NCBI GenBank assembly: GCA_951406725.2 | Contig: OX597826.1 | Coordinates: 83,638,001-83,702,000, forward strand | Length of the DNA stretch: 64,000 nt | Origin: Octopus vulgaris | Taxonomy: Eukaryota | Reading direction: 5' to 3' | Shown here: positions 6,590-50,742 of the stretch, piece after piece | How positions within the stretch are numbered: position 1 is the stretch's first letter | How the letters are laid out: each line of letters begins with the position of its first letter | Translations under genes and position numbers: made by a program | Notes under the pieces: model-generated | The model's database searches: none | The model's input: the letters and a program-made list of their open reading frames with translations, nothing else | What the model was told of the DNA's origin: nothing

Positions 6590-6812
6590 TTAAATTGTTT
6601 CAGCTTTAAAGCTGCATTCACGCTAGGGCATCATTATATATATCCTTGAAATATGAGACTAGAAACAGCCAACAACTGATGAAGGGTTCTTTATGTTTGT
6701 TTTGTTTTCCATTTGTGTCTTTTGTTGTTTGAAAGAATAGTTTATGTTCAATGTACTCGTGCATCGTACTTTTTTGCTGTACATGTTTTGTGATATCCTG
6801 TGCCCATATATG
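6590..6812 (+). mobile_element. Short (TA)n-embedded repeat with degenerate permuted-hammerhead motif
   Basis: CCTTGAAA..ACAACTGATGAAGGG, a T-rich stretch, then CCTGTGCCCATATA. Same layout as the 35225, 36335 and 38920 copies. Confidence 0.6.
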
Positions 6813-15512: not shown

Positions 15513-15593
15513 TACAGTTCTATATTTAAGAGATGAAGAATTATGAACATTATTTACATTTGATGGATATTTGTCCTCATCTTGTTTGTTGTT

Positions 15594-15639
15594 AACACAA
15601 CGTTTTGGCTGATATACCTTCCAGCCTTCATCAGGTATC
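15594..15639 (-). ncRNA. Minimal type I hammerhead motif (G12>A)
   Basis: GAUAC CUGAUGA A GGCUG-loop-CAGCC AAAAC GUU GUGUU. Confidence 0.7.
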
Positions 15640-16608
15640 TTGGGGAAATTTCGAACCTGGGTTCTCATTCCTAAGGTATTTTTGGATGTTATTATTATTA
15701 TTATTATTCAGATGAATGCCTGGAATCGAACTTGGAATCTTGTTAGTAGCCCACACTCTTAACCACTACGCCATATGCCCGTGGGCAATTATGGAGTGAA
15801 TTTTAGGGCTTATAAATTTAATATCTTCCTATCCTTCCTTAATACCGGTTTCCCATATGCTGTTCATATCTGCACTTGGTCTGCTTAGGAGGTTGTTGTG
15901 TCTTAGCATATGTGCTGCTTCTTTTAGTTTTCCTATTTTCCAGTGGTGTTCTCTGTCTACTATTTTAACTTCATCCCACAGAGGGAGGTGGTCTCCATTT
16001 TTCCATACAACTACATAAGCAACAACTACCCCAAAAGCATACTCTCCTCTCCAATTATGAAGAAAAGAGAGGATGAAACCAATAAACTGTCCACAGTCTG
16101 TCTACCCTATGTGAAAGGCCTCTCTGAAAAGATACAAAAGACATGTGGCCCATATGACATCAGGACAGTATTCAAGAGTCATACAACACTTTGCAAATAT
16201 CTTCTTTGAGTAAAACAACCAACAGAAGAGAATATGATCAAGAACTGTGTGTACTCCATCCTATGCAGTTGTGGTAGGTTATACAAAGGCAAAACATACT
16301 GTCTCCCTCAAAATAAGGGTAGAGGAACATTGCAAAGCTGTGACATGGGGAGATATTGATAAATCGGGTAAAGCTGATCATGTGTGGAAAAATGGAGATC
16401 ACCTCCCCCTGTAGGATGAAGTTAAAATAGTAGACAGAGAACACCACTGGAAAATAGGAAAACTAAAAGAAGCAGCACATATGCTCGGATACAACAACCT
16501 CCTAAGCAGACCAAGTGCAGATATGAACAGCAGATGGGAACCGGTATTAAGGAAGGATAGGAAGATATTAGATTTATAAGCCCTAAAATTCACTCCATAA
16601 TTGCCCAC

Positions 16609-34975: not shown

Positions 34976-35224
34976 CTCGAACACACATGAACACACACAT
35001 ACAGTCTTTTCACAGATGAGGATACAACATTATCCTTCAGTGGCTCACGTGGCATTATTCTCAGCTAATAAAAGATTACATATACTCTACTTTATGTATA
35101 TGCATGTATATATATATATATAGAGAGAGAGAGATAAAACTTACTTGGAAATGGATGCATGGCATTTGATCATATAATATTTTGTTACCACTTTAACCGT
35201 CCACAAAAAATCCCGAATTTTATT

Positions 35225-35392
35225 TAATTTGCTTTGCAAAAAGGCCTGTTTTAATGAAGTGACGTCTTGTCCCTACCTTTGAAATGTGGAGTAGATAAAA
35301 CAGGGAACAACTGATGAAGGGAATGTTCTTTATGTTGCCTGTCACGTTTCTCATTCTGTTGACATTTCTTTGATGTCCTGTACCATATATGC
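35225..35392 (+). mobile_element. Short repeat carrying a permuted hammerhead motif
   Basis: Same layout as 36480-36700. Ends CCTGTACCATATA. Confidence 0.75.
35261..35321 (+). ncRNA. Non-circularly permuted hammerhead ribozyme candidate
   Basis: GACGU C|UUGUCCCU A CCUUU GAAA UGUG ..AGGGAACAA CUGAUGA AGGG. Confidence 0.7.
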
Positions 35393-36191: not shown

Positions 36192-36245
36192 AACAAAAAC
36201 TGTCTGACGAACGGGAACGTGAAACTCCGAGTAACAGGCTTTGTT
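36192..36245 (+). ncRNA. Intact minimal type I hammerhead ribozyme
   Basis: AACAAA-AA-CUGU CUGACGA ACG-GGAA-CGU GAAA CUC-C-GAG UA| ACAG-GC-UUUGUU. Perfect core, predicted cleavage after 36233. Confidence 0.88.
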
Positions 36246-36334
36246 GAATTTCTGCTGCTTTTAAATAAAGCATATTACTCTACCTCTTTTCTCCACCTTG
36301 TTTCACATTTATGTATTTACTCCGGTATATATAT

Positions 36335-36696
36335 AAAAAAGCCCTCATTGTTGGTTTCCTTGTCCTGTTTTTATGCTTTATATGTTCTGTATTTTTTATT
36401 TTTTGTATTGCTTTTACGTCCTGTTCTTGTCACTTTCTTTCCTTTTTTTTACTCCTCTGCAAAAAGAATTTTATTTAATTCATTTTGCAGGAAGGACTGC
36501 TTCGGCCGGATCATGTTCTGCCCTTACCTTCGAAACACGCATTGAGTTGAACCAGGGGCAGCTGATGAAGGGGAATATTCCTTGTATTGTTTGTCTTGTA
36601 CTCTGTTTTTTTCGTTGTTAAAAAAAGTCCGTTTCCTTGTTTGTTTTTATGTTTTCTTTTCTCGTTGTGTTCTACGTTTATTTGTGGTGTCCTGTA

Positions 36697-36700
<4 letters not shown>
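36335..36700 (+). mobile_element. (TA)n-embedded repeat (putative PLE pLTR / retrozyme-like unit) with permuted hammerhead
   Basis: T-rich flanks around a GC-rich core. Ends CCTGTACTCA(TA)n. Confidence 0.7.
36512..36573 (+). ncRNA. Non-circularly permuted hammerhead ribozyme candidate (best copy)
   Basis: CAUGU U|CUGCCCUU A CCUUC GAAA CACG ..AGGGGCAG CUGAUGA AGGGG, with an 8-bp stem I. Confidence 0.75.
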
Positions 36701-36740
<40 letters not shown>

Positions 36741-36835
36741 TGTATATATACATATAGATGTAGGTATGTACATATATGTATGTATGCATATATTTTATTT
36801 GTTAAATTGTTATTATATATATATATATATATATA

Positions 36836-37570
36836 ATGGTTGTATACTGTCAATCTAACAAGAACGTGACAGTAGGGGGTACACCACCATTATATAGCCC
36901 TAGGAGGTATCGAACGCCTCCTGACAGCTTCAACACATTTTATCCTGTGTCCTTATATACACATACGAAGGGGAGACAAACACCCCCAACTGCCGGAACT
37001 GCATCTAGGAAACTCTTCAATAGACACAATTTAAAAATTAGTTTTAGTTCAACTACCAATTTTAAAAACATAATCAATCATAACATACAAAAAACACAAG
37101 AAGAAAACAGCTGTTCATGCAGGAATAAAGAATTGTGCCCGCTAAATGGAGCTTGCATGTCCAAGACCATCATATATGAAGCTACCGTAAACTCTATAAC
37201 CACTAAAGACACCGTTTCGACGAAGAAATACGTGGGCCTGACAGAGGGTAATTTCAAGGCCAGGTTCAATAACCACACTTTGAGCTTTAGGCACTGGAAC
37301 AAAAGAAAAGCGACACAATTATCCAATCATATTTGGTCTTTAAGAGATAAAGGTGTCGATTATAACATACAATGGAAGATTTTGGCCAGATGTAAGCCCT
37401 ACACTAACGGCAGCGGAAGGTGCGGTTTATGCGACATGGAGAGATGGCTTATCTGGAAAAGCAGCTTAGACCCTACCACATGTCTAAATACAAGGACAGA
37501 GCTTTTCGGATCATACCCACATGTGACTAAATTTCTGTTACGTTTTTGGTCCCCTAAAGAAAACGGATAG
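36836..37570 (+). CDS. GIY-YIG endonuclease ORF of a Penelope-like element (244 aa, no RT)
   Basis: CSCRNKELCPLNGAC, IIYEA..YVGLTE..FKARFNNH, WKIL, CGLC..E, LNTRTE. This Cys pattern resembles Hydra-clade PLEs (from recall, not tested). Confidence 0.8.
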   Translation: MVVYCQSNKNVTVGGTPPLYSPRRYRTPPDSFNTFYPVSLYTHTKGRQTPPTAGTASRKLFNRHNLKISFSSTTNFKNIINHNIQKTQEENSCSCRNKELCPLNGACMSKTIIYEATVNSITTKDTVSTKKYVGLTEGNFKARFNNHTLSFRHWNKRKATQLSNHIWSLRDKGVDYNIQWKILARCKPYTNGSGRCGLCDMERWLIWKSSLDPTTCLNTRTELFGSYPHVTKFLLRFWSPKENG

Positions 37571-37761
37571 AACATGCTTTCTGTGTTATGTCCCAAGAAG
37601 ATTTTATATATTTTTATAAATATTTTTATATATTTTTATGTATTTTTATATAATTTTTATGACGAAAAATGCGAGCGATGTATAAGTACGCAGGCAAAGC
37701 AGAGTTATAACAGAGTAATTTCCCTTCATTTTTAACGGTATTTTTTCATAACGTTTTCAAA

Positions 37762-37834
37762 TAGCCAGATAACCGAAGAGATGGTGTTGTGGATTTCCAC
37801 TTCGGCATCTGAAACTCAGAGTTTTATCTTGACT
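37762..37834 (+). ncRNA. Type I hammerhead motif (U4>C) in the PLE 3' pLTR
   Basis: AGAUAA CCGAAGA GAUG..CAUC U GAAA CUC-A-GAG UU UUAUCU. Confidence 0.7.
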
Positions 37835-38763: not shown

Positions 38764-39000
38764 TATTGTATGCTACAAAACCTCCAAAACCATAAACCCT
38801 TAATTAAGTATTATCCTAGCTTGAAAAGACTATGAACATAGACAATCATACAACATTAGTATATTTGATAACACCAACATTACAACTACCACAAACCATG
38901 AACTCTGTAACTTGCCAGCCATATGAGAATGAAGGACAACTCAGAATAATGATACACAAGACATAAAAGATTCACAGACAACAAATGTATCAAAGACATA

Positions 39001-39060
39001 TTCCCTTCATCAGCTGCCCAATGGATATCATTATGGTTTTGACACCTAGGAGTACCATTC
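39001..39060 (-). ncRNA. Permuted hammerhead family copy (degenerate)
   Basis: Minus strand reads AUGGU A|CUCCUAG GUGUC AAAA CCAU ..UUGGGCAG CUGAUGA AGGG. Confidence 0.6.
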
Positions 39061-39327
39061 AGTTTGGCAATGTCAACTACATTAAAAATATATATATATC
39101 TTGGTGTGTTTTAAAGCATTAAAATGTCAGAGAATGAGATTTGGTGGCGGGGGGGGGGGCTGTTTGATTGAAAATGATGCTGTAAATGAAACTCATAAAA
39201 GATGATGTAAAATACCTGTTAGGAAATAATGGAGAGAATCACTCCCAGGAATGAAACTCTGAGTCCATCAATTACGAAACAGTGATGGTAACCCTTACAC
39301 CAGGATGACTCCGACAAACTAAATATG

Positions 39328-39971: not shown

Positions 39972-40488
39972 ATTCCAGTACATACAGACCGAACCATCAA
40001 GGCCAATAAACCAGATATTGTTGTGAAAGACCAAAACAATAAAGTTTGCTTATTGATCAACATGAGCATCCCCTGTGATCATAATATCTCAGCGAAAGAG
40101 TTTGACAAGCTCAGAAAATATAAAGACCTACTCATTGAAATTGAGAAAATGTGGCATCTCAAAGCGGTTACAATACCAGTGATCGTAGGAGCACTAGGAA
40201 TGATCAAGAAGGGAACCGAAAATTATATGAGAATGATCCCTGGCTTACCATCCCTGCAAGAAGTGCAAAAGATTGTCTTAACTGGTACATCACACGTATT
40301 GAGAAGAGCATTGTCGATGTGAGAACTGTTGCTGCTCATGTATTTTAATTTAACTTTAAAAAAAATGAACGAACTACTGAGTTTGGTTTAATGGCCTACC
40401 AATGTATACTATGAGTTTCTTTGCCCTAGGAGTCAGGAATACACTCAGCAAGAAATGGAAGCAAATTTGAAAGAAGAAGAAAAAAAAA

Positions 40489-40490
<2 letters not shown>
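39972..40490 (+). mobile_element. R4/Dong-like RLE LINE, 5'-truncated copy 1
   Basis: TDRTIKANKPDIV..KYKDL..MW..PVIVGALG..LRRALSM*, flanked by (AAT)n. Confidence 0.9.
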
Positions 40491-40564
<74 letters not shown>

Positions 40565-40583
40565 TAATAATAATAATAATAAT

Positions 40584-41417
40584 ACTGAAACCGAAGGGTT
40601 TATCATAGCAGCTCAAGATCAATGCCTACCAACAAGAAACTACCAGGCCAACATATTAAAGAACGGCAGTAGCCCAACATGTCGTGTATGCTGACAACAA
40701 AATGAAACCATTGACCATGTTGTCTCCAAATGCAGTCTTCTAGTGCCTACAGAGTACCTCAGTAGACATGATAGAGCTGCACAATATATTCACTGGGTAA
40801 TTTGCAAAAACCTGGATTTGCCCCATGAAAAAAACTGTGCTTGAAAATGACCACATCTCACTCCTCTGGAACTTCATCATTCAAACTGACAGGAAGATAG
40901 ATGCAAATAGGCCAGACATCATATTGAAAGACTTCAGACAAAGAACATGCCTCCTCATTGATATGACTGTCCTAATCGATATAAACGTATCTGTCAAGAC
41001 CTACCAAAAACTGAGCAAATATAAAGATCTTGAAATAGAAATCAGCAAAATGTGGAAGCTGAAGACTAAAACAATACCTGTTGTCATAGGTGCCCTGGGA
41101 ATGATAGCGAAAGGGACTGATTGCTACCTAACTCAGATACCAGGAAACCCCAAAATGGCAGAAATTCAAAAGATAGTGCTCATGGGAACTGCTCATATCC
41201 TACGCAAAATACTCTCTATGTAATCCCAAGGTTTAAAACAAACTTTTTTTTTTATTTATTTATTTATTTTTTTTTTTAATTTATGTATTAGACATTCACT
41301 AGTACAACACAAAAAAAAAACCCCCAAATATATGGCACAGAACTTCCAACCTGTTGTCTCTTGAGGTCTCTGGGTGAGACTTGGAGCCAACTTGTACAGA
41401 CATAAAGCAAAAGTCAA
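40584..41417 (+). mobile_element. R4/Dong-like RLE LINE, 5'-truncated copy 2
   Basis: ETEGFIIAAQDQ, CRVC..H..C zinc knuckle, RHD, NRPDII..KYKDL. Flanked by (AAT)n. Confidence 0.92.
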
Positions 41418-41656
<239 letters not shown>

Positions 41657-42760
41657 ACTACCAAGCAAGCAAAGTGTAACTACCAAGCAAGCAAAGCGTA
41701 ACTACCAAGCAAGCAAAGCGAATAAGAGCCGGAAACCACTGCTACCAAGCAAGCAAAGCGAATAAGAGCCGGAAACCACTGCTACCAAGCAAGCAAAGCG
41801 AATCAAGCAGACTGCAAAAAAGAACGGGCAGAATCAAATTGAGAGGCGGTGGAGCCAGAAGCCCCTGCATGGACAATATATTCTACGAAGCCAAAATGCT
41901 GATGTAGACCAAGCAACAACCCATGAGTGGCTGAAGAGCTCTGGATTGAAAGCAGAGACTGAAGGTTTCATAATGGCAGCACAAGATCAAAGCTTGTTTA
42001 CCAGAAATTACCAGGCTAACATTCTCCGAAACGGTACTGACCCTAAATGCAGATTCTGTGACACATTTGACGAAACAATAGACCATCTCGTTTCGGGATG
42101 TCCTGTGCTGACACCAAACGAATACAAAAATCGCCACGATAGGGTAGGACAGTATATACATTGGAAGATATGTAAACACTACAAATCCGACACTCCTGCT
42201 AACTGGTATGAACACCATCCTCAGCCAGTTGTTGAAGGAAAAGATGTCACCATCCTCTGGGATTTTCCAGTCAACACTGACAGAACGATCAAGGCTAATC
42301 GACCAGACATAATTGTTAAAGACAGGGAAGAAAATACCTGCAGACTAATAGAAGTAAGCGTCCCCACTGATAAAAATGTATCTGTCAAGGAATTTGACAA
42401 ACTTAGTAAAGGACCTGGAAATCGAAATACAGAGGATGTGGAATCTTAAAACAAAAACTGTTCCTGTTATTGTAGGTGCCCTAGGTATGATAAAAAAGGA
42501 ATGTCAGAAACACCTAGACAATATCCCTGGAAAACCATGTCTCAAGGAAATCCAAAAGATTGTGCTAACAAGTACTGCCCACATCCTTAGAAAAACCCTA
42601 TCAATGTAAATGTTTGTGTTTGCATTACATGGAGATATTTCTCTACTTCCCCTCCCCAAGCTTTCAGCTATATTTCAACAACTCTTAACCTTCACTTGCC
42701 CTAGGGCGCTGGGTGTGCCCCGGCAGGTGATTGCATCAAACATGCAGATTAAAAGTAAAT
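41657..42760 (+). mobile_element. R4/Dong-like RLE LINE, 5'-truncated copy 3
   Basis: WSQKPLHGQY..KAETEGFIMAAQDQ..CRFC..HLVSGC..RHD..RPDII, with a frameshift near 42410. Flanked by (AAT)n. Confidence 0.93.
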
Positions 42761-47746: not shown

Positions 47747-50077
47747 CTTCAGTAGTATATTTTTTTTCGCGTTCTTTCATTTCACTACCGGGTGCAGCTC
47801 TGTGTGCCTTGAGTATGTGCTGTGATTTGTTGTGATGCTCTGATGGTTACTGTATGGAAAGTGTTCTGCGTAGGATGTGTGCAGTGCCTAGTAGTGCAAT
47901 TTTCTGTATGTTATATGTGTTTGTAAGTCCTGGTGTTTTTGTTATGTATTTCTCTGAATATTTTTTTATCATGCCTAATGCACCTATTATGATAGGAATT
48001 GTTTCTGTTTTTAGATTCCACATTCTGGTTACCTCTATTTCCAGGTCTTTGTATTTTGAAAGTTTCTCCATTTCTTTTAGAGACATGTTGTCATCTGCCG
48101 GTATTGATACATCAATTAGAAAGCATTTTTTTTCTTCATGATCTCATGATATCTGGTCTGTTAGCCTTAATTTCTCTATCTGTGTGTATCGGCATATCCC
48201 AGAGTATGGTTGCTTTCTCGTTTTCTGTGATCTTTTCAGGTGTGTGCCTATACCATCTTTTTTCTGTTGTTATTTGATAATGTTGGCATAGCTTCCAGTG
48301 TATGTAGGTCCCAACTCTGTCGTGTCTGTGAATATATTCCTTATAAGCCAGGACTGGGCAGCCAGAGGCAATATGATTTATTGTTTCTTGTCCATCTCCA
48401 CATATTCTGCAGTTACTTGTTATATTTCTTTTCATTACATGTTTTTGGTAATTTCTGGTGGAAAGGCTTTGGTCTTGTGCTGCAATTAAAAATCCTTCTG
48501 TCTCTGCTTTGAGTCCTGAGCTTTTCAACCATTGCTGGGATTTTTCTTTGTCTATTTCTTTTGCATTTAGTTTAGTCCAGTATTTACCATGAAGGGGCTT
48601 TTCTTGCCATTGTTTTATCATGGTTCATTGCTGTTCTAGTTTTAGTTTGGATTTCATTTGTTTTATAGCTTTTGTTGTTTCTCCATCTTCTTCTTCTTCT
48701 TCTTCTTCTTCTTCTTCTTCTTCTTCTTCTTCTTCTTCTTCTTCTTCTTCTTCTTCTTCTTCTTCTTCTTCTTCTTCTTCTTCTTCTTCTTCTTCTTCTT
48801 CTTCATATTTATTAGGTGGTATGATTTCTTGTTTGTATTTGTCAGCTTCCTTAAATACTGAGAACAGTTTTTTGTTTTGCTTGTGTTTTGCCGCTATTTG
48901 TATCAGTTTTCCTTCCTTCTGAAGTAGATATTTTTGCAGTCCTATGGTGGTTATTTTATAATAGTTTTCCAGCTGTATAAGGCCTCTACCACCTTCTATA
49001 CGTTGTATATATAGTCTTTCTATGTCAGATTTTGGGTGATGCATCCTAGATCCTGTCATTATTTTTCTTGTTTTCCTATCTATTTTGGTCAGTTCATTTC
49101 GTGTCCAGTTAAGGATATTGTAGCTGTAACTTATAACTGGGACAGCTAAAGTGTTGATACCTATTATCTTGTTTTTAGCATTGAGCTCTGTGTTTAGTAT
49201 TGATCTAACTCGTCTATAATATTCTTTTTTTATTTTCTCTTTCATTTGTGTGTGTTGTGTCTTATCTAGTTCATGGATTCCTAAGTACTTGTAAGTTTGG
49301 CTTTGGTCTAATTCTTTTATTTCATTGGTTTTATCTAGTGTGATGTTGTTACTCTTAACTAGTTTTCCTCTTTTCATGGTTACTTTGGCGCATTTTTCTA
49401 ATCCAAATTTCATATCTATTTCTTTGGTAAATCCATGAACTGTCTTTAATAGTGTTTCCAGCTGTTTGTCATTTGCAGCGTATAGTTTTAGGTCATCCAT
49501 ATATAAAAGGTGGCTGATCGTTTTGCCGTAACATTTATATCCGCATCCAGTTCTATTTAGCATATCAGATAGAGGTGACAGTGCCAAGCAGAAAAGGAGT
49601 GGAGAGAGCGTGTCTCCCTGGAATATTCCTCTTCTAATGGAGATGTCTTTGGTTTTCATGAGTCCCTCTTTTGTTTGGAGGTGTAGGACTGTTTGCCATT
49701 TATTCATAGAGTGCTCTATGAATTTTATGATTGTTGGTGCTACTTTGTTAATGGCTAGTGTTTCGAGGATCCATGTGTGGGGGATGCTATCAAACGCCTT
49801 TTTGTAGTCAATCCAGGCCATACTGAGGCCTTTCTTCTTTCTGTGGCTGTCTTCAGTTATGGCTTTATTAATCATTAGTTGATCTTTACAGCCATATGAG
49901 CCTTTGCGGCATCCATTCTGCTCTTCTGGGAACAGTTTGTTTTCGTCCAGGTGCTTGTTCAGCCTTTGTGATATCACTGCAGTAAATGCCTTGAACATAG
50001 TAGGGAGGCAGGTTATTGGTCTGTAGTTTTCTGGTTTTTCTGTTTCATTTGATTTGGGAATTAAGATGGTTTTCCCC
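47747..50077 (-). mobile_element. R4/Dong-like RLE LINE, 2.3-kb 5'-truncated copy in (TAA)n
   Basis: RT motifs YRPITCL, WIDYKKAFDS, GIFQGDTLSPLLF, YMDDLKL, YKYLG, followed by CCHC knuckle, RHD and RPD..D..K. Frameshifts at about 48622 and 48135. Confidence 0.96.
48625..49998 (-). pseudogene. Reverse transcriptase ORF segment (457 aa) with in-frame E39
   Basis: ORF track; (TTC)39 at 48688-48804. Confidence 0.92.
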
Positions 50078-50115
50078 TTATTATTATTACTATTATTATT
50101 ATTATTATTATCATA

Positions 50116-50148
<33 letters not shown>

Positions 50149-50742
50149 GAGTGAGAGAGCAGTTCATGCCATCAAAGTGACACTGGGGTAAAATATACGA
50201 AGCCCAATATACCCATCATGATTACCCGTCTGATAAGGGCACACCAGGCACATGCATCACAACCATATGTGCGCGACATGGTGATCTCATATCAAGATAA
50301 ACAGCATATGACCTTGCAGGTGGGACCCAGTTAGAATTTTCTTCAGGTTGAGTAGCCCATCCCGCTCAAACGGTCCCTGAATAAGGGTTGTTTAAGGATG
50401 TTGAAAGAACCACCCATGTTTCCAGAGGTGAATTATTCAAACCCCAAAGAATCCCTCTCAACACATGGCTATGATGCTCCCCCACTACTTCTGCTTGTGA
50501 TCAGAGATGCACATATCGTCAGCCACTAAGGGACATGCTCAACTGGTTAGGTCAAAGAACTGACAAGCAAATCTGTGGTATTGAGCAGAATATTTGCTGT
50601 AGCCCATCTTTTATAGCAAGACAAAACAATGTACATGATAACACTTCCAATCAGTGAAGATCAGAAGCCATGAGAGCCACTGCCTGGTACTGCATCAGGG
50701 CATTTATTTACTGCATCAGGGCATGGTACTGCATCAGGGCAT
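50149..50742 (-). mobile_element. (TAA)n-associated non-coding element, apparently full length, with triplicated end
   Basis: (ATT)n on both sides; TACTGCATCAGGGCAT x3 at 50688-50742. Confidence 0.85.

What the first reader, a model, noticed from the sequence alone, without database searches (positions are those of the whole stretch)
36512..36573. Hammerhead ribozyme family with non-circularly permuted (pseudoknotted) strand order
Established: hammerhead types I, II and III are circular permutations of strands A (I-CUGANGA-II), B (II-GAAA-III) and C (III-UH-I). Seen: here the order is C-B-A, namely CAUGU-U|CUGCCCUU, A, CCUUC-GAAA-CACG, 14 nt, AGGGGCAG-CUGAUGA-AGGGG. Across copies stem III is CAUGU/ACACG, ACGU/AUGU and AUGGU/ACCAU, and stem I is CUGCCCUU/AGGGGCAG, UUGUCCCU/AGGGAACAA and CU-CCUAG/UUGGGCAG. 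The stems covary while the cores stay fixed, and the triplet is always GUH. A 1-nt linker from stem I to stem II fits their side-by-side packing in the 3D fold. Four copies in 64 kb imply a high-copy, (TA)n-associated mobile unit that standard type I-III searches would miss. Caveats: the stem II register is imperfect (CCUUC can alternatively pair with GAAGG of the core). I also recall a report of natural non-circular hammerhead permutations (Weinberg lab), so the novelty of this family needs checking.
Basis: partly seen in the sequence, partly recalled or inferred. Interest (0 to 1): 0.93.

Follow-up and report, generated by a model that had tools for sequence, protein, structure and literature searches.

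The report
Rewired hammerhead ribozyme in Naiad retroelements
A family of jumping genes thought to lack the usual self-cutting hammerhead RNA appears to carry a scrambled version of it, folded as a knot and entered through two extra helices inside the catalytic core; this wiring seems undescribed, occurs in thousands of copies here and in several animal phyla, and still needs a cutting test.

Summary
Block order is S-G-C, the reverse-cyclic order of Eckert 2023 (PMC10085705). However, stem II does not pair with the strand after CUGAUGA. Two further helices, IV and V, join A9 to G10.1 as a gap-free four-way junction. The unit is 36452-36573, predicted cut after 36517. Five families occur in this genome, roughly 10^4 copies. 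One is the 3' end of the published Octopus Naiad Penelope-like element, a clade reported to lack canonical hammerheads. Read by eye, 10 of 54 published Naiad consensuses (four phyla) show this split form and 6 show intact C-S-G. The non-circular order is known; its presence in animal retroelements and the core-split wiring I could not find in print. Unchecked scan notes report rearranged hammerheads in Penelope-like elements and a core-opened phage hammerhead on other DNA. Cleavage is untested; the window's copy has a stem III mismatch.

The parts
36334..36837 (+). 5'-truncated copy of a non-coding repeat (family A; tandem unit about 760-820 nt) that carries the motif and runs into (TA)n
   Evidence: shared extent with 29 other loci; tandem spacings
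36452..36456 (+). helix IV, 5' strand; pairs with 36569-36573 and closes the domain
   Evidence: 91.9% of cells paired
36457..36490 (+). hairpin V, directly between helix IV and stem II
   Evidence: 94.7% paired; 5 of 7 pairs change on both sides
36491..36495 (+). stem II 5' strand (G10.1 = 36491), detached from CUGAUGA; pairs with 36527-36531
   Evidence: 99.3% paired; 3 of 5 pairs change on both sides
36497..36505 (+). 5' strand of the stem I-II interaction helix (imperfect in family A)
   Evidence: duplex -4.1 kcal/mol; clean 5-8 bp helices in families B, D, E read, and in C
36512..36525 (+). block S: stem III strand, GUU triplet with predicted cut 3' of 36517, stem I strand
   Evidence: the cut site is inferred from hammerhead numbering, not observed
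36527..36539 (+). block G: stem II 3' strand, GAAA core (36532-36535), stem III strand
36547..36555 (+). 3' strand of the I-II interaction helix; its last two bases compete with the distal end of stem I
   Evidence: read
36554..36568 (+). block C without its stem II strand: stem I strand and CUGAUGA core (36562-36568)
35191..35327 (+). second copy, family B, full length but with broken pairs in IV, V, II and III
38997..39095 (-). third copy, family C (the Naiad 3' end); its 5' part with helix IV is lost at a (TA)n run
6638..6692 (+). fourth copy, 3' half only (blocks G and C)

Best explanation
It is a self-cleaving hammerhead ribozyme in the 3' terminal repeat of Naiad-type Penelope-like retroelements and their non-coding derivatives, with a new wiring. 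5' to 3': helix IV strand, hairpin V, stem II 5' strand, I-II helix strand, block S (cut site), 1-7 nt, block G, linker, I-II helix strand, stem I strand plus CUGANGA, helix IV strand. Shown by sequence comparison: the core letters, stems I, II, III, the I-II helix and helices IV and V. Inferred: helix II stacks on the A9.G12 pair as in any hammerhead, while IV stacks on V, so the A9-G10.1 step becomes a gap-free four-way junction; the I-II helix supplies the usual stem I-II contact; the RNA cuts in cis after the NUH. Because helix IV pairs the first and last strands, the active fold cannot close until the whole unit is made. Inferred origin: circular permutation, through the tandem copies typical of these elements, of the intact C-S-G form seen in nematode Naiads. 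Inferred role: cutting read-through transcripts of tandem arrays into unit-length RNAs.
For: Upstream strand pairs the 5 nt before GAAA in 121 of 139 copies, with three different sequences across five families. Helices IV and V abut with no gap in 71 of 139 copies and in 0 copies at gaps of 1-3 nt. On alignment A2 (27 sequences, families A, B, D, E) 89.8% of cells pair, against 36-53% for slid registers; on A3 (16 family C copies) all six helices are 82-93% paired. The core (CUGANGA, GAAA, UH) is intact in 98 of 139 copies. The family C motif is the 3' end of the Naiad_Obim and Naiad_Ovul consensuses, and in G000 lies 0.83-1.33 kb after a Naiad-like ORF end in 7 of 15 loci. By eye, unrelated sequences in ctenophore, cnidarian and crustacean Naiads keep the same six helices with different letters. 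In several of these the base after A9 is U or C-rich and cannot supply G10.1. All three reverse-cyclic orders cleaved in vitro in PMC10085705.
Against: No cleavage data. PMC10085705 assumes block C cannot be interrupted and knows no insertion over 1-2 nt there, so activity with a junction at A9-G10.1 is an extrapolation. Three family D copies (L165, L179, L181) have U at 10.1. Only 56 of 139 copies keep core plus stems I and III of 4 bp or more. 5' truncation points do not cluster at the cut: 0 of 34 within 3 nt. In a Poseidon element, cleavage was dispensable for insertion in vitro and RNA-seq showed no ends at the site (PMC11167929). The five families are related, CpG decay mimics some compensatory changes, the 'pairs changed on both sides' count does not beat shuffles (38/500, 420/500), and R-scape was not run. 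Cross-phylum support is by-eye reading. Families A, B, D and E, including the window copy, were not tied to any ORF.
Confidence: 0.76

Rival explanations
1. Regulated or intermolecular hammerhead: the helices are real, but the monomer is slow or off, and cutting needs a second copy (one strand lends block S to another) or the element's protein.
For: Canonical Penelope-like hammerheads are weak as monomers and work as dimers (PMC4209133). A second copy lies within about 1.5 kb in 19 of 103 loci as a direct piece and 21 of 103 as an inverted piece. Family B's stem III is self-complementary. The predicted lowest-energy fold of the window copy pairs the upstream strand with a downstream CCUU instead.
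Against: Stem III is not self-complementary in families A, C, D, E. Stems of 5-12 bp and a 5-15 bp I-II helix give a complete monomer. The order stays pseudoknotted however tandem copies are combined (inference).
Confidence: 0.11
2. A non-catalytic RNA domain descended from a hammerhead, kept as a binding or packaging site for the Naiad protein.
For: Cleavage was dispensable in the one Penelope-like element tested; U at 10.1 in a subfamily; no genomic end signature.
Against: The general acid and base positions (G8, G12), C3, G5 and an NUH are kept in all five families and in every split-form Naiad read, while helix letters change freely.
Confidence: 0.08
3. One reading: an ordinary type-SGC hammerhead whose stem II uses the strand after CUGAUGA, the upstream helix being an inhibitory alternative.
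For: In families A, D and E that register can form 4-5 pairs if G.U is counted (25/28, 48/55, 7/7), and GG follows CUGAUGA-N in all five families.
Against: 0 of 139 copies reach 4 Watson-Crick pairs; it fails in B (0/25) and C (2/24); 74.8% paired, mostly G.U. The conserved GG is explained by helix IV. Ctenophore, coral, hydrozoan and crustacean Naiads have no such G-rich strand.
Confidence: 0.04

Closest known systems
Type-SGC and type-CSG hammerhead ribozymes (Eckert et al. 2023, PMC10085705; main text parts 1-6 of 8 read, supplement searched by words)
   Same: Reverse-cyclic block order, short linker from stem I into stem II, a helix joining the far ends of stems I and II, standard core.
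   Different: Block C is split: the stem II strand sits at the 5' end, with helices IV and V between A9 and G10.1. Their SGC came only from metatranscriptomes and CSG from metagenomes, none from genomes of known organisms except one GCS candidate. Here it is a high-copy animal repeat.
Minimal hammerheads in the pseudo-LTRs of canonical Penelope-like elements (Cervera and de la Pena 2014, PMC4209133; parts 1-2 of 4 read)
   Same: Same place in the element; tandem context; an insertion point between A9 and G10.1 (one extra base there).
   Different: Those are type I (C-G-S) with a vestigial palindromic stem III and need dimers; this has the reverse order, full stem III and two inserted helices.
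Naiad clade of Penelope-like elements (Craig et al. 2021, PMC8557442; passages and supplement passages read)
   Same: Family C is the 3' end of Naiad_Obim and Naiad_Ovul; (TA)n association; partial tandem and inverted copies.
   Different: The paper reports no canonical hammerhead and marks only 'HHR_core' or 'HHR_half_core'; it does not describe the fold. Families A, B, D, E show no ORF in the flanks read.
Animal non-LTR retrozymes (bioRxiv 10.64898/2026.07.22.740005; part 1 of 5 and passages read)
   Same: Non-coding, tandem, ribozyme-bearing derivatives of Penelope-like elements.
   Different: Defined by a type I hammerhead; these units are 700-920 nt, mostly dispersed, with the permuted ribozyme.

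Membership tests
Hammerhead ribozyme class | CUGANGA, GAAA and NUH core | tested here: met
   intact in 98 of 139 copies and in all five family majorities
Hammerhead ribozyme class | stems I and III flanking the cut site | tested here: met
   stem I scores lower (75%) in A2 because lengths differ and copies are decayed
Hammerhead ribozyme class | stem II opening with G10.1-C11.1 | tested here: met
   through the upstream strand: GC 24, GU 2, unpaired 1 of 27; U at 10.1 in three D copies
Hammerhead ribozyme class | A9 joined to G10.1 by at most 1-2 nt | tested here: not met
   helices IV and V lie between them
Hammerhead ribozyme class | stem I-II tertiary contact | tested here: met
   a helix: 87.5% paired in family C; read in B, D, E; imperfect in A; not scored in A2 because registers differ
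Hammerhead ribozyme class | site-specific self-cleavage | not testable with these tools
   only contigs were available
Type SGC (Eckert 2023) | order S, G, C | tested here: met
Type SGC (Eckert 2023) | uninterrupted block C ending in the stem II strand | tested here: not met
   0 of 139 copies
Type SGC (Eckert 2023) | short stem I-to-stem II linker and I-II helix | tested here: met
Types I-III and Penelope-like minimal hammerheads | cyclic order C-G-S; Rfam match | tested here: not met
Naiad Penelope-like elements | motif lies 3' of the EN-RT ORF (family C) | tested here: met
   7 of 15 loci with the ORF-end match, 3 of the 11 chosen by protein alone; L221 joins that end to pieces resembling the Naiad_Ovul protein, compared by eye; no Pfam support for the fragments
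Naiad Penelope-like elements | ORF linked to families A, B, D, E | tested here: inconclusive
   none in +-1.5 kb of 143 loci or after divergent ORF ends; no sequence similarity to family C by BLAST
Naiad Penelope-like elements | partial tandem and inverted copies | tested here: met
   19 and 21 of 103 loci
Naiad Penelope-like elements | (TA)n insertion bias | tested here: inconclusive
   TA run at the shared 3' end in 54 of 103 loci, but TA runs are everywhere here and no control was run
Non-LTR retrozymes | tandem units each with a type I hammerhead | tested here: not met
   permuted motif; mostly dispersed
Non-LTR retrozymes | circular RNA intermediate | not testable with these tools
   no raw RNA reads

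The most novel reading that the evidence does not exclude
Naiad retroelements across animal phyla use an ancient lineage of reverse-order hammerheads, and most of those read use a seventh wiring, opened inside the catalytic core through a four-way junction, that cuts in cis. This would make non-circular RNA permutation abundant in animal genomes, overturn the view that Naiads lack hammerheads, break the three-indivisible-blocks rule, and show tandem duplication interconverting C-S-G, S-G-C and split forms within one clade.
Probability: 0.6. Interest if true: 0.92.

Novelty: new variant of a known kind. Interest (0 to 1): 0.86.

Why it matters
Non-circularly permuted hammerheads were known from about 580 SGC and a handful of CSG sequences of unknown hosts. 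Here they sit in a named animal retroelement clade, in thousands of copies in one genome. The split form adds a wiring that the 2023 scheme excluded, and offers a natural site (A9-G10.1) where whole helices can be grafted into a hammerhead core. It gives a direct test of why Naiads seemed to thrive without hammerheads, and a series of related elements in which the permutations can be traced. Short natural RNAs (about 110-135 nt) make it testable in days.

Tried and rejected
Rfam scans: no hammerhead or other family at the motif. Splice-acceptor idea for the AG before stem II: rejected, since families B, C, D mostly lack AG there and CAG arises by CpG decay. A degenerate type I hammerhead upstream or downstream of the core: rejected once stems II, IV and V explained those strands. 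A link to the neighbouring GIY-YIG ORF at 36806-37570: no other locus shares it. 5' ends at the cut site: 0 of 34. Expression: no RNA holder listed; four contig sets, three only guessed to be RNA, cover the motif but cannot show ends, strand or level. Alignment A1 put family C out of register, so C was dropped from A2 (also 3 of the 30 other copies, two B and one D, with private indels) and scored alone in A3. An ORF for families A, B, D, E was not found. Literature: searches found no report of a permuted hammerhead in Penelope-like elements or of a helix between A9 and G10.1. Three relevant papers were not held (PMC5785218, PMC4509812, PMC3334697); PMC13725137 cites hammerhead variants 'containing additional helices', which I could trace only in part (PMC10162972 passages showed none; PMC3088659 passages showed only 1-2 nt core insertions; PMC6765202 passages none). 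The published Naiad sequences could be read but not computed on.

Full report
Observation. In the terms of Eckert et al. 2023 (PMC10085705) this is order S-G-C, a non-circular permutation. No Rfam family matches. The window is part of a 2.8-Gb genome. A 201-nt query gave 3234 first-look candidates, of which 40 were scored, at 95-97% identity. Queries with two other window copies and one copy from unselected DNA gave 2538, 1073 and 3074 candidates; these overlap and are not copy numbers. Two core-containing patterns gave 2054 and 610 hits against 0 for reversed controls. A covariance model found 2 copies in 400 kb of unselected DNA and 4 in the window, which suggests about 10^4 copies with a wide margin. 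A bare three-block descriptor does not beat chance on unselected DNA; the case rests on the family comparison.

The real stem II. Five families emerged (A, the finding; B; C; D; E). The 5 nt before GAAA are CCUUC in A, B, E, GUGUC in C and UGCUC in D. The strand after CUGAUGA stays G-rich in all five and does not follow these changes. A strand 11-17 nt upstream of block S does: GAAGG, GACAC, GAGCA. Over all 139 classified copies (14 unclassified ones set aside), the upstream strand makes 4 or more Watson-Crick pairs in 121 (A 28/28, B 24/25, C 15/24, D 48/55, E 6/7).

Two more helices, and the I-II contact. The bases directly after A9 pair with a strand 5' of everything else (helix IV, 36452-36456 with 36569-36573). 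Between that strand and stem II lies a hairpin (V, 36457-36490). IV, V and II abut without spacers: a strict test is met in 71 of 139 copies at gap 0 and in none at gaps 1-3. In A2, IV is 91.9% and V 94.7% paired, and the whole structure 89.8% against 36-53% for slid registers. In 16 family C copies all six helices are 82-93% paired. One or two bases after stem II, a further helix pairs with the strand just 5' of block C's stem I strand; this is the stem I-II interaction helix that PMC10085705 found essential in type SGC. Its position, continuing from the upstream strand, independently marks that strand as 10.1-10.5. Limits: the families are related, CpG decay can mimic C-G to U-A changes, the count of pairs changed on both sides does not beat shuffles (38/500 and 420/500), and R-scape was not available.

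Host element. Families A, B, D, E are 700-920-nt units found as variably 5'-truncated copies, with a direct second piece in 19 and an inverted one in 21 of 103 loci. A, B and D share a 3' end with a donor-like GTAAG at the tandem junction. No ORF was found in their flanks. Family C is the 3' end of the Naiad_Obim and Naiad_Ovul consensuses in the supplement of Craig et al. 2021 (PMC8557442), and Naiad_Ovul is marked 'HHR_half_core' there. In G000 the motif lies 834-1334 nt after a matching ORF end in 7 of 15 loci, 3 of the 11 chosen by protein alone. L221 carries that end together with pieces resembling the Naiad_Ovul protein (by eye). So family C is a Naiad end. The other four are most likely non-coding derivatives moved by such an element; that step is inferred from shared architecture, since BLAST shows no similarity to C.

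Other Naiads, read by eye. I searched the supplement for four spellings of the core and saw places 1-53 of 62 (CTGATGA), 4-23 of 23 (CTGACGA), 4-11 of 43 (CTGAAGA) and 4-18 of 25 (CTGAGGA); words broken by a line end are missed, and names come from the following header and the list order. The split form, with IV, V, II, I-II, III and I, appears in 10 of the 54 Naiad entries: Bfor (ctenophore), 3_Chem, Amil, Aacu, Anas, 2_Movir and one unassigned neighbour (cnidarian range), EuTe (crustacean, name inferred), Obim and Ovul. Helix letters differ completely; for example stem II is 4-6 bp, stem III 5-12 bp, the I-II helix 5-15 bp, IV 4-10 bp and V 6-9 bp. The junction has no spacer in most, one U in 3_Chem, and one or two U.U pairs in 2_Movir and Bfor. 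Triplets are GUA, AUA, AUC and UUC. Six entries in the nematode range (1_, 2_ and 3_Nbra and three unassigned) have intact C-S-G order with stem II directly after the core. One entry in the arachnid range has S-G-C with a 16-bp I-II helix and an unclear stem II. Four crustacean passages and Omin did not fit or were decayed, and no core appeared for bivalve, hemichordate or fish ends in the places seen.

How it most likely works. The core, stems and I-II helix would build the normal hammerhead fold. Penelope-like hammerheads commonly carry one extra base between A9 and G10.1 (PMC4209133), so this step tolerates a break. Here it is replaced by a four-way junction: II stacks on the core, IV on V (inferred). 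The RNA would cut after 36517. Moving the I-II strand and CUGANGA from the front of a C-S-G unit to its back gives exactly this order, as happens when a unit is read across two tandem copies; IV and V then hold A9 beside G10.1 (inferred). The likely role is to cut read-through transcripts of tandem arrays. Against a strong role: genomic 5' ends do not cluster at the site (0 of 34), and in a Poseidon element cleavage was dispensable in vitro (PMC11167929). The window's copy has an A.C mismatch in stem III and is probably impaired; 56 of 139 copies keep core and both stems.

Comparison and novelty. It works like a hammerhead and has the cyclic order of types SGC and CSG, but it fails one defining feature of type SGC, the uninterrupted block C. 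PMC10085705 found its SGC RNAs only in metatranscriptomes and states that no insertion over 1-2 nt is known next to CUGAnGA. PMC8557442 states that Naiads lack canonical hammerheads. Nine searches found no report of either the association or the split wiring; three relevant papers were not held. Unchecked notes of this scan describe a C-S-G or otherwise rearranged hammerhead in Penelope-like elements of another genome, a phage hammerhead entered through a core helix, and twisters in other Naiads; I reached my reading before seeing them and did not test them.

Verdict. Real, larger than reported, and differently wired. New variant of a known kind; interest 0.86; cleavage untested.

Noticed in passing
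window 36806-37830 (+): A separate Penelope-like 3' fragment with a C-terminal GIY-YIG frame (Pfam E 0.0088), ending in a decayed canonical-order hammerhead-like stretch near 37773-37830. Not linked to the finding.
   Followed up: partly
window about 15570-15640 (-); also L166, L120: A canonical-order hammerhead-like repeat with one extra A after CUGAUGA and a long stem II.
   Followed up: no
window 36195-36240 (+): A short canonical-order hammerhead-like stretch resembling the Hydra-type ends in the PMC8557442 supplement; no Rfam match.
   Followed up: partly
L165, L179, L181: A family D subgroup with U instead of G at position 10.1; either inactive or using a shifted register.
   Followed up: no
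PMC8557442 supplement, nematode-range Naiads: Six entries with intact type-CSG hammerheads, a type published from only a few metagenomic sequences; one arachnid-range entry looks like intact SGC and has a 7-nt strand complementary to its own core.
   Followed up: partly
PMC8557442 supplement, bivalve and squid-range Naiad ends: A different conserved 3' motif without the hammerhead core; earlier scan notes propose a twister in clam Naiads.
   Followed up: no
window 39972-42449 and 48136-50163: Broken non-LTR retrotransposon reverse transcriptase and endonuclease frames interrupted by (AAT)n and (TCT)n runs.
   Followed up: no
window 36517/36566, run X15: One DNA contig joins 36517 to the opposite strand at 36566, an inversion joint exactly at the predicted cut; a single contig, so no weight is given to it.
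   Followed up: no
L021, L059, L186: Families A, B and D share a 3' end with a splice-donor-like GTAAG at the tandem junction, as in the 5' intron of Penelope and Chlamys elements.
   Followed up: partly
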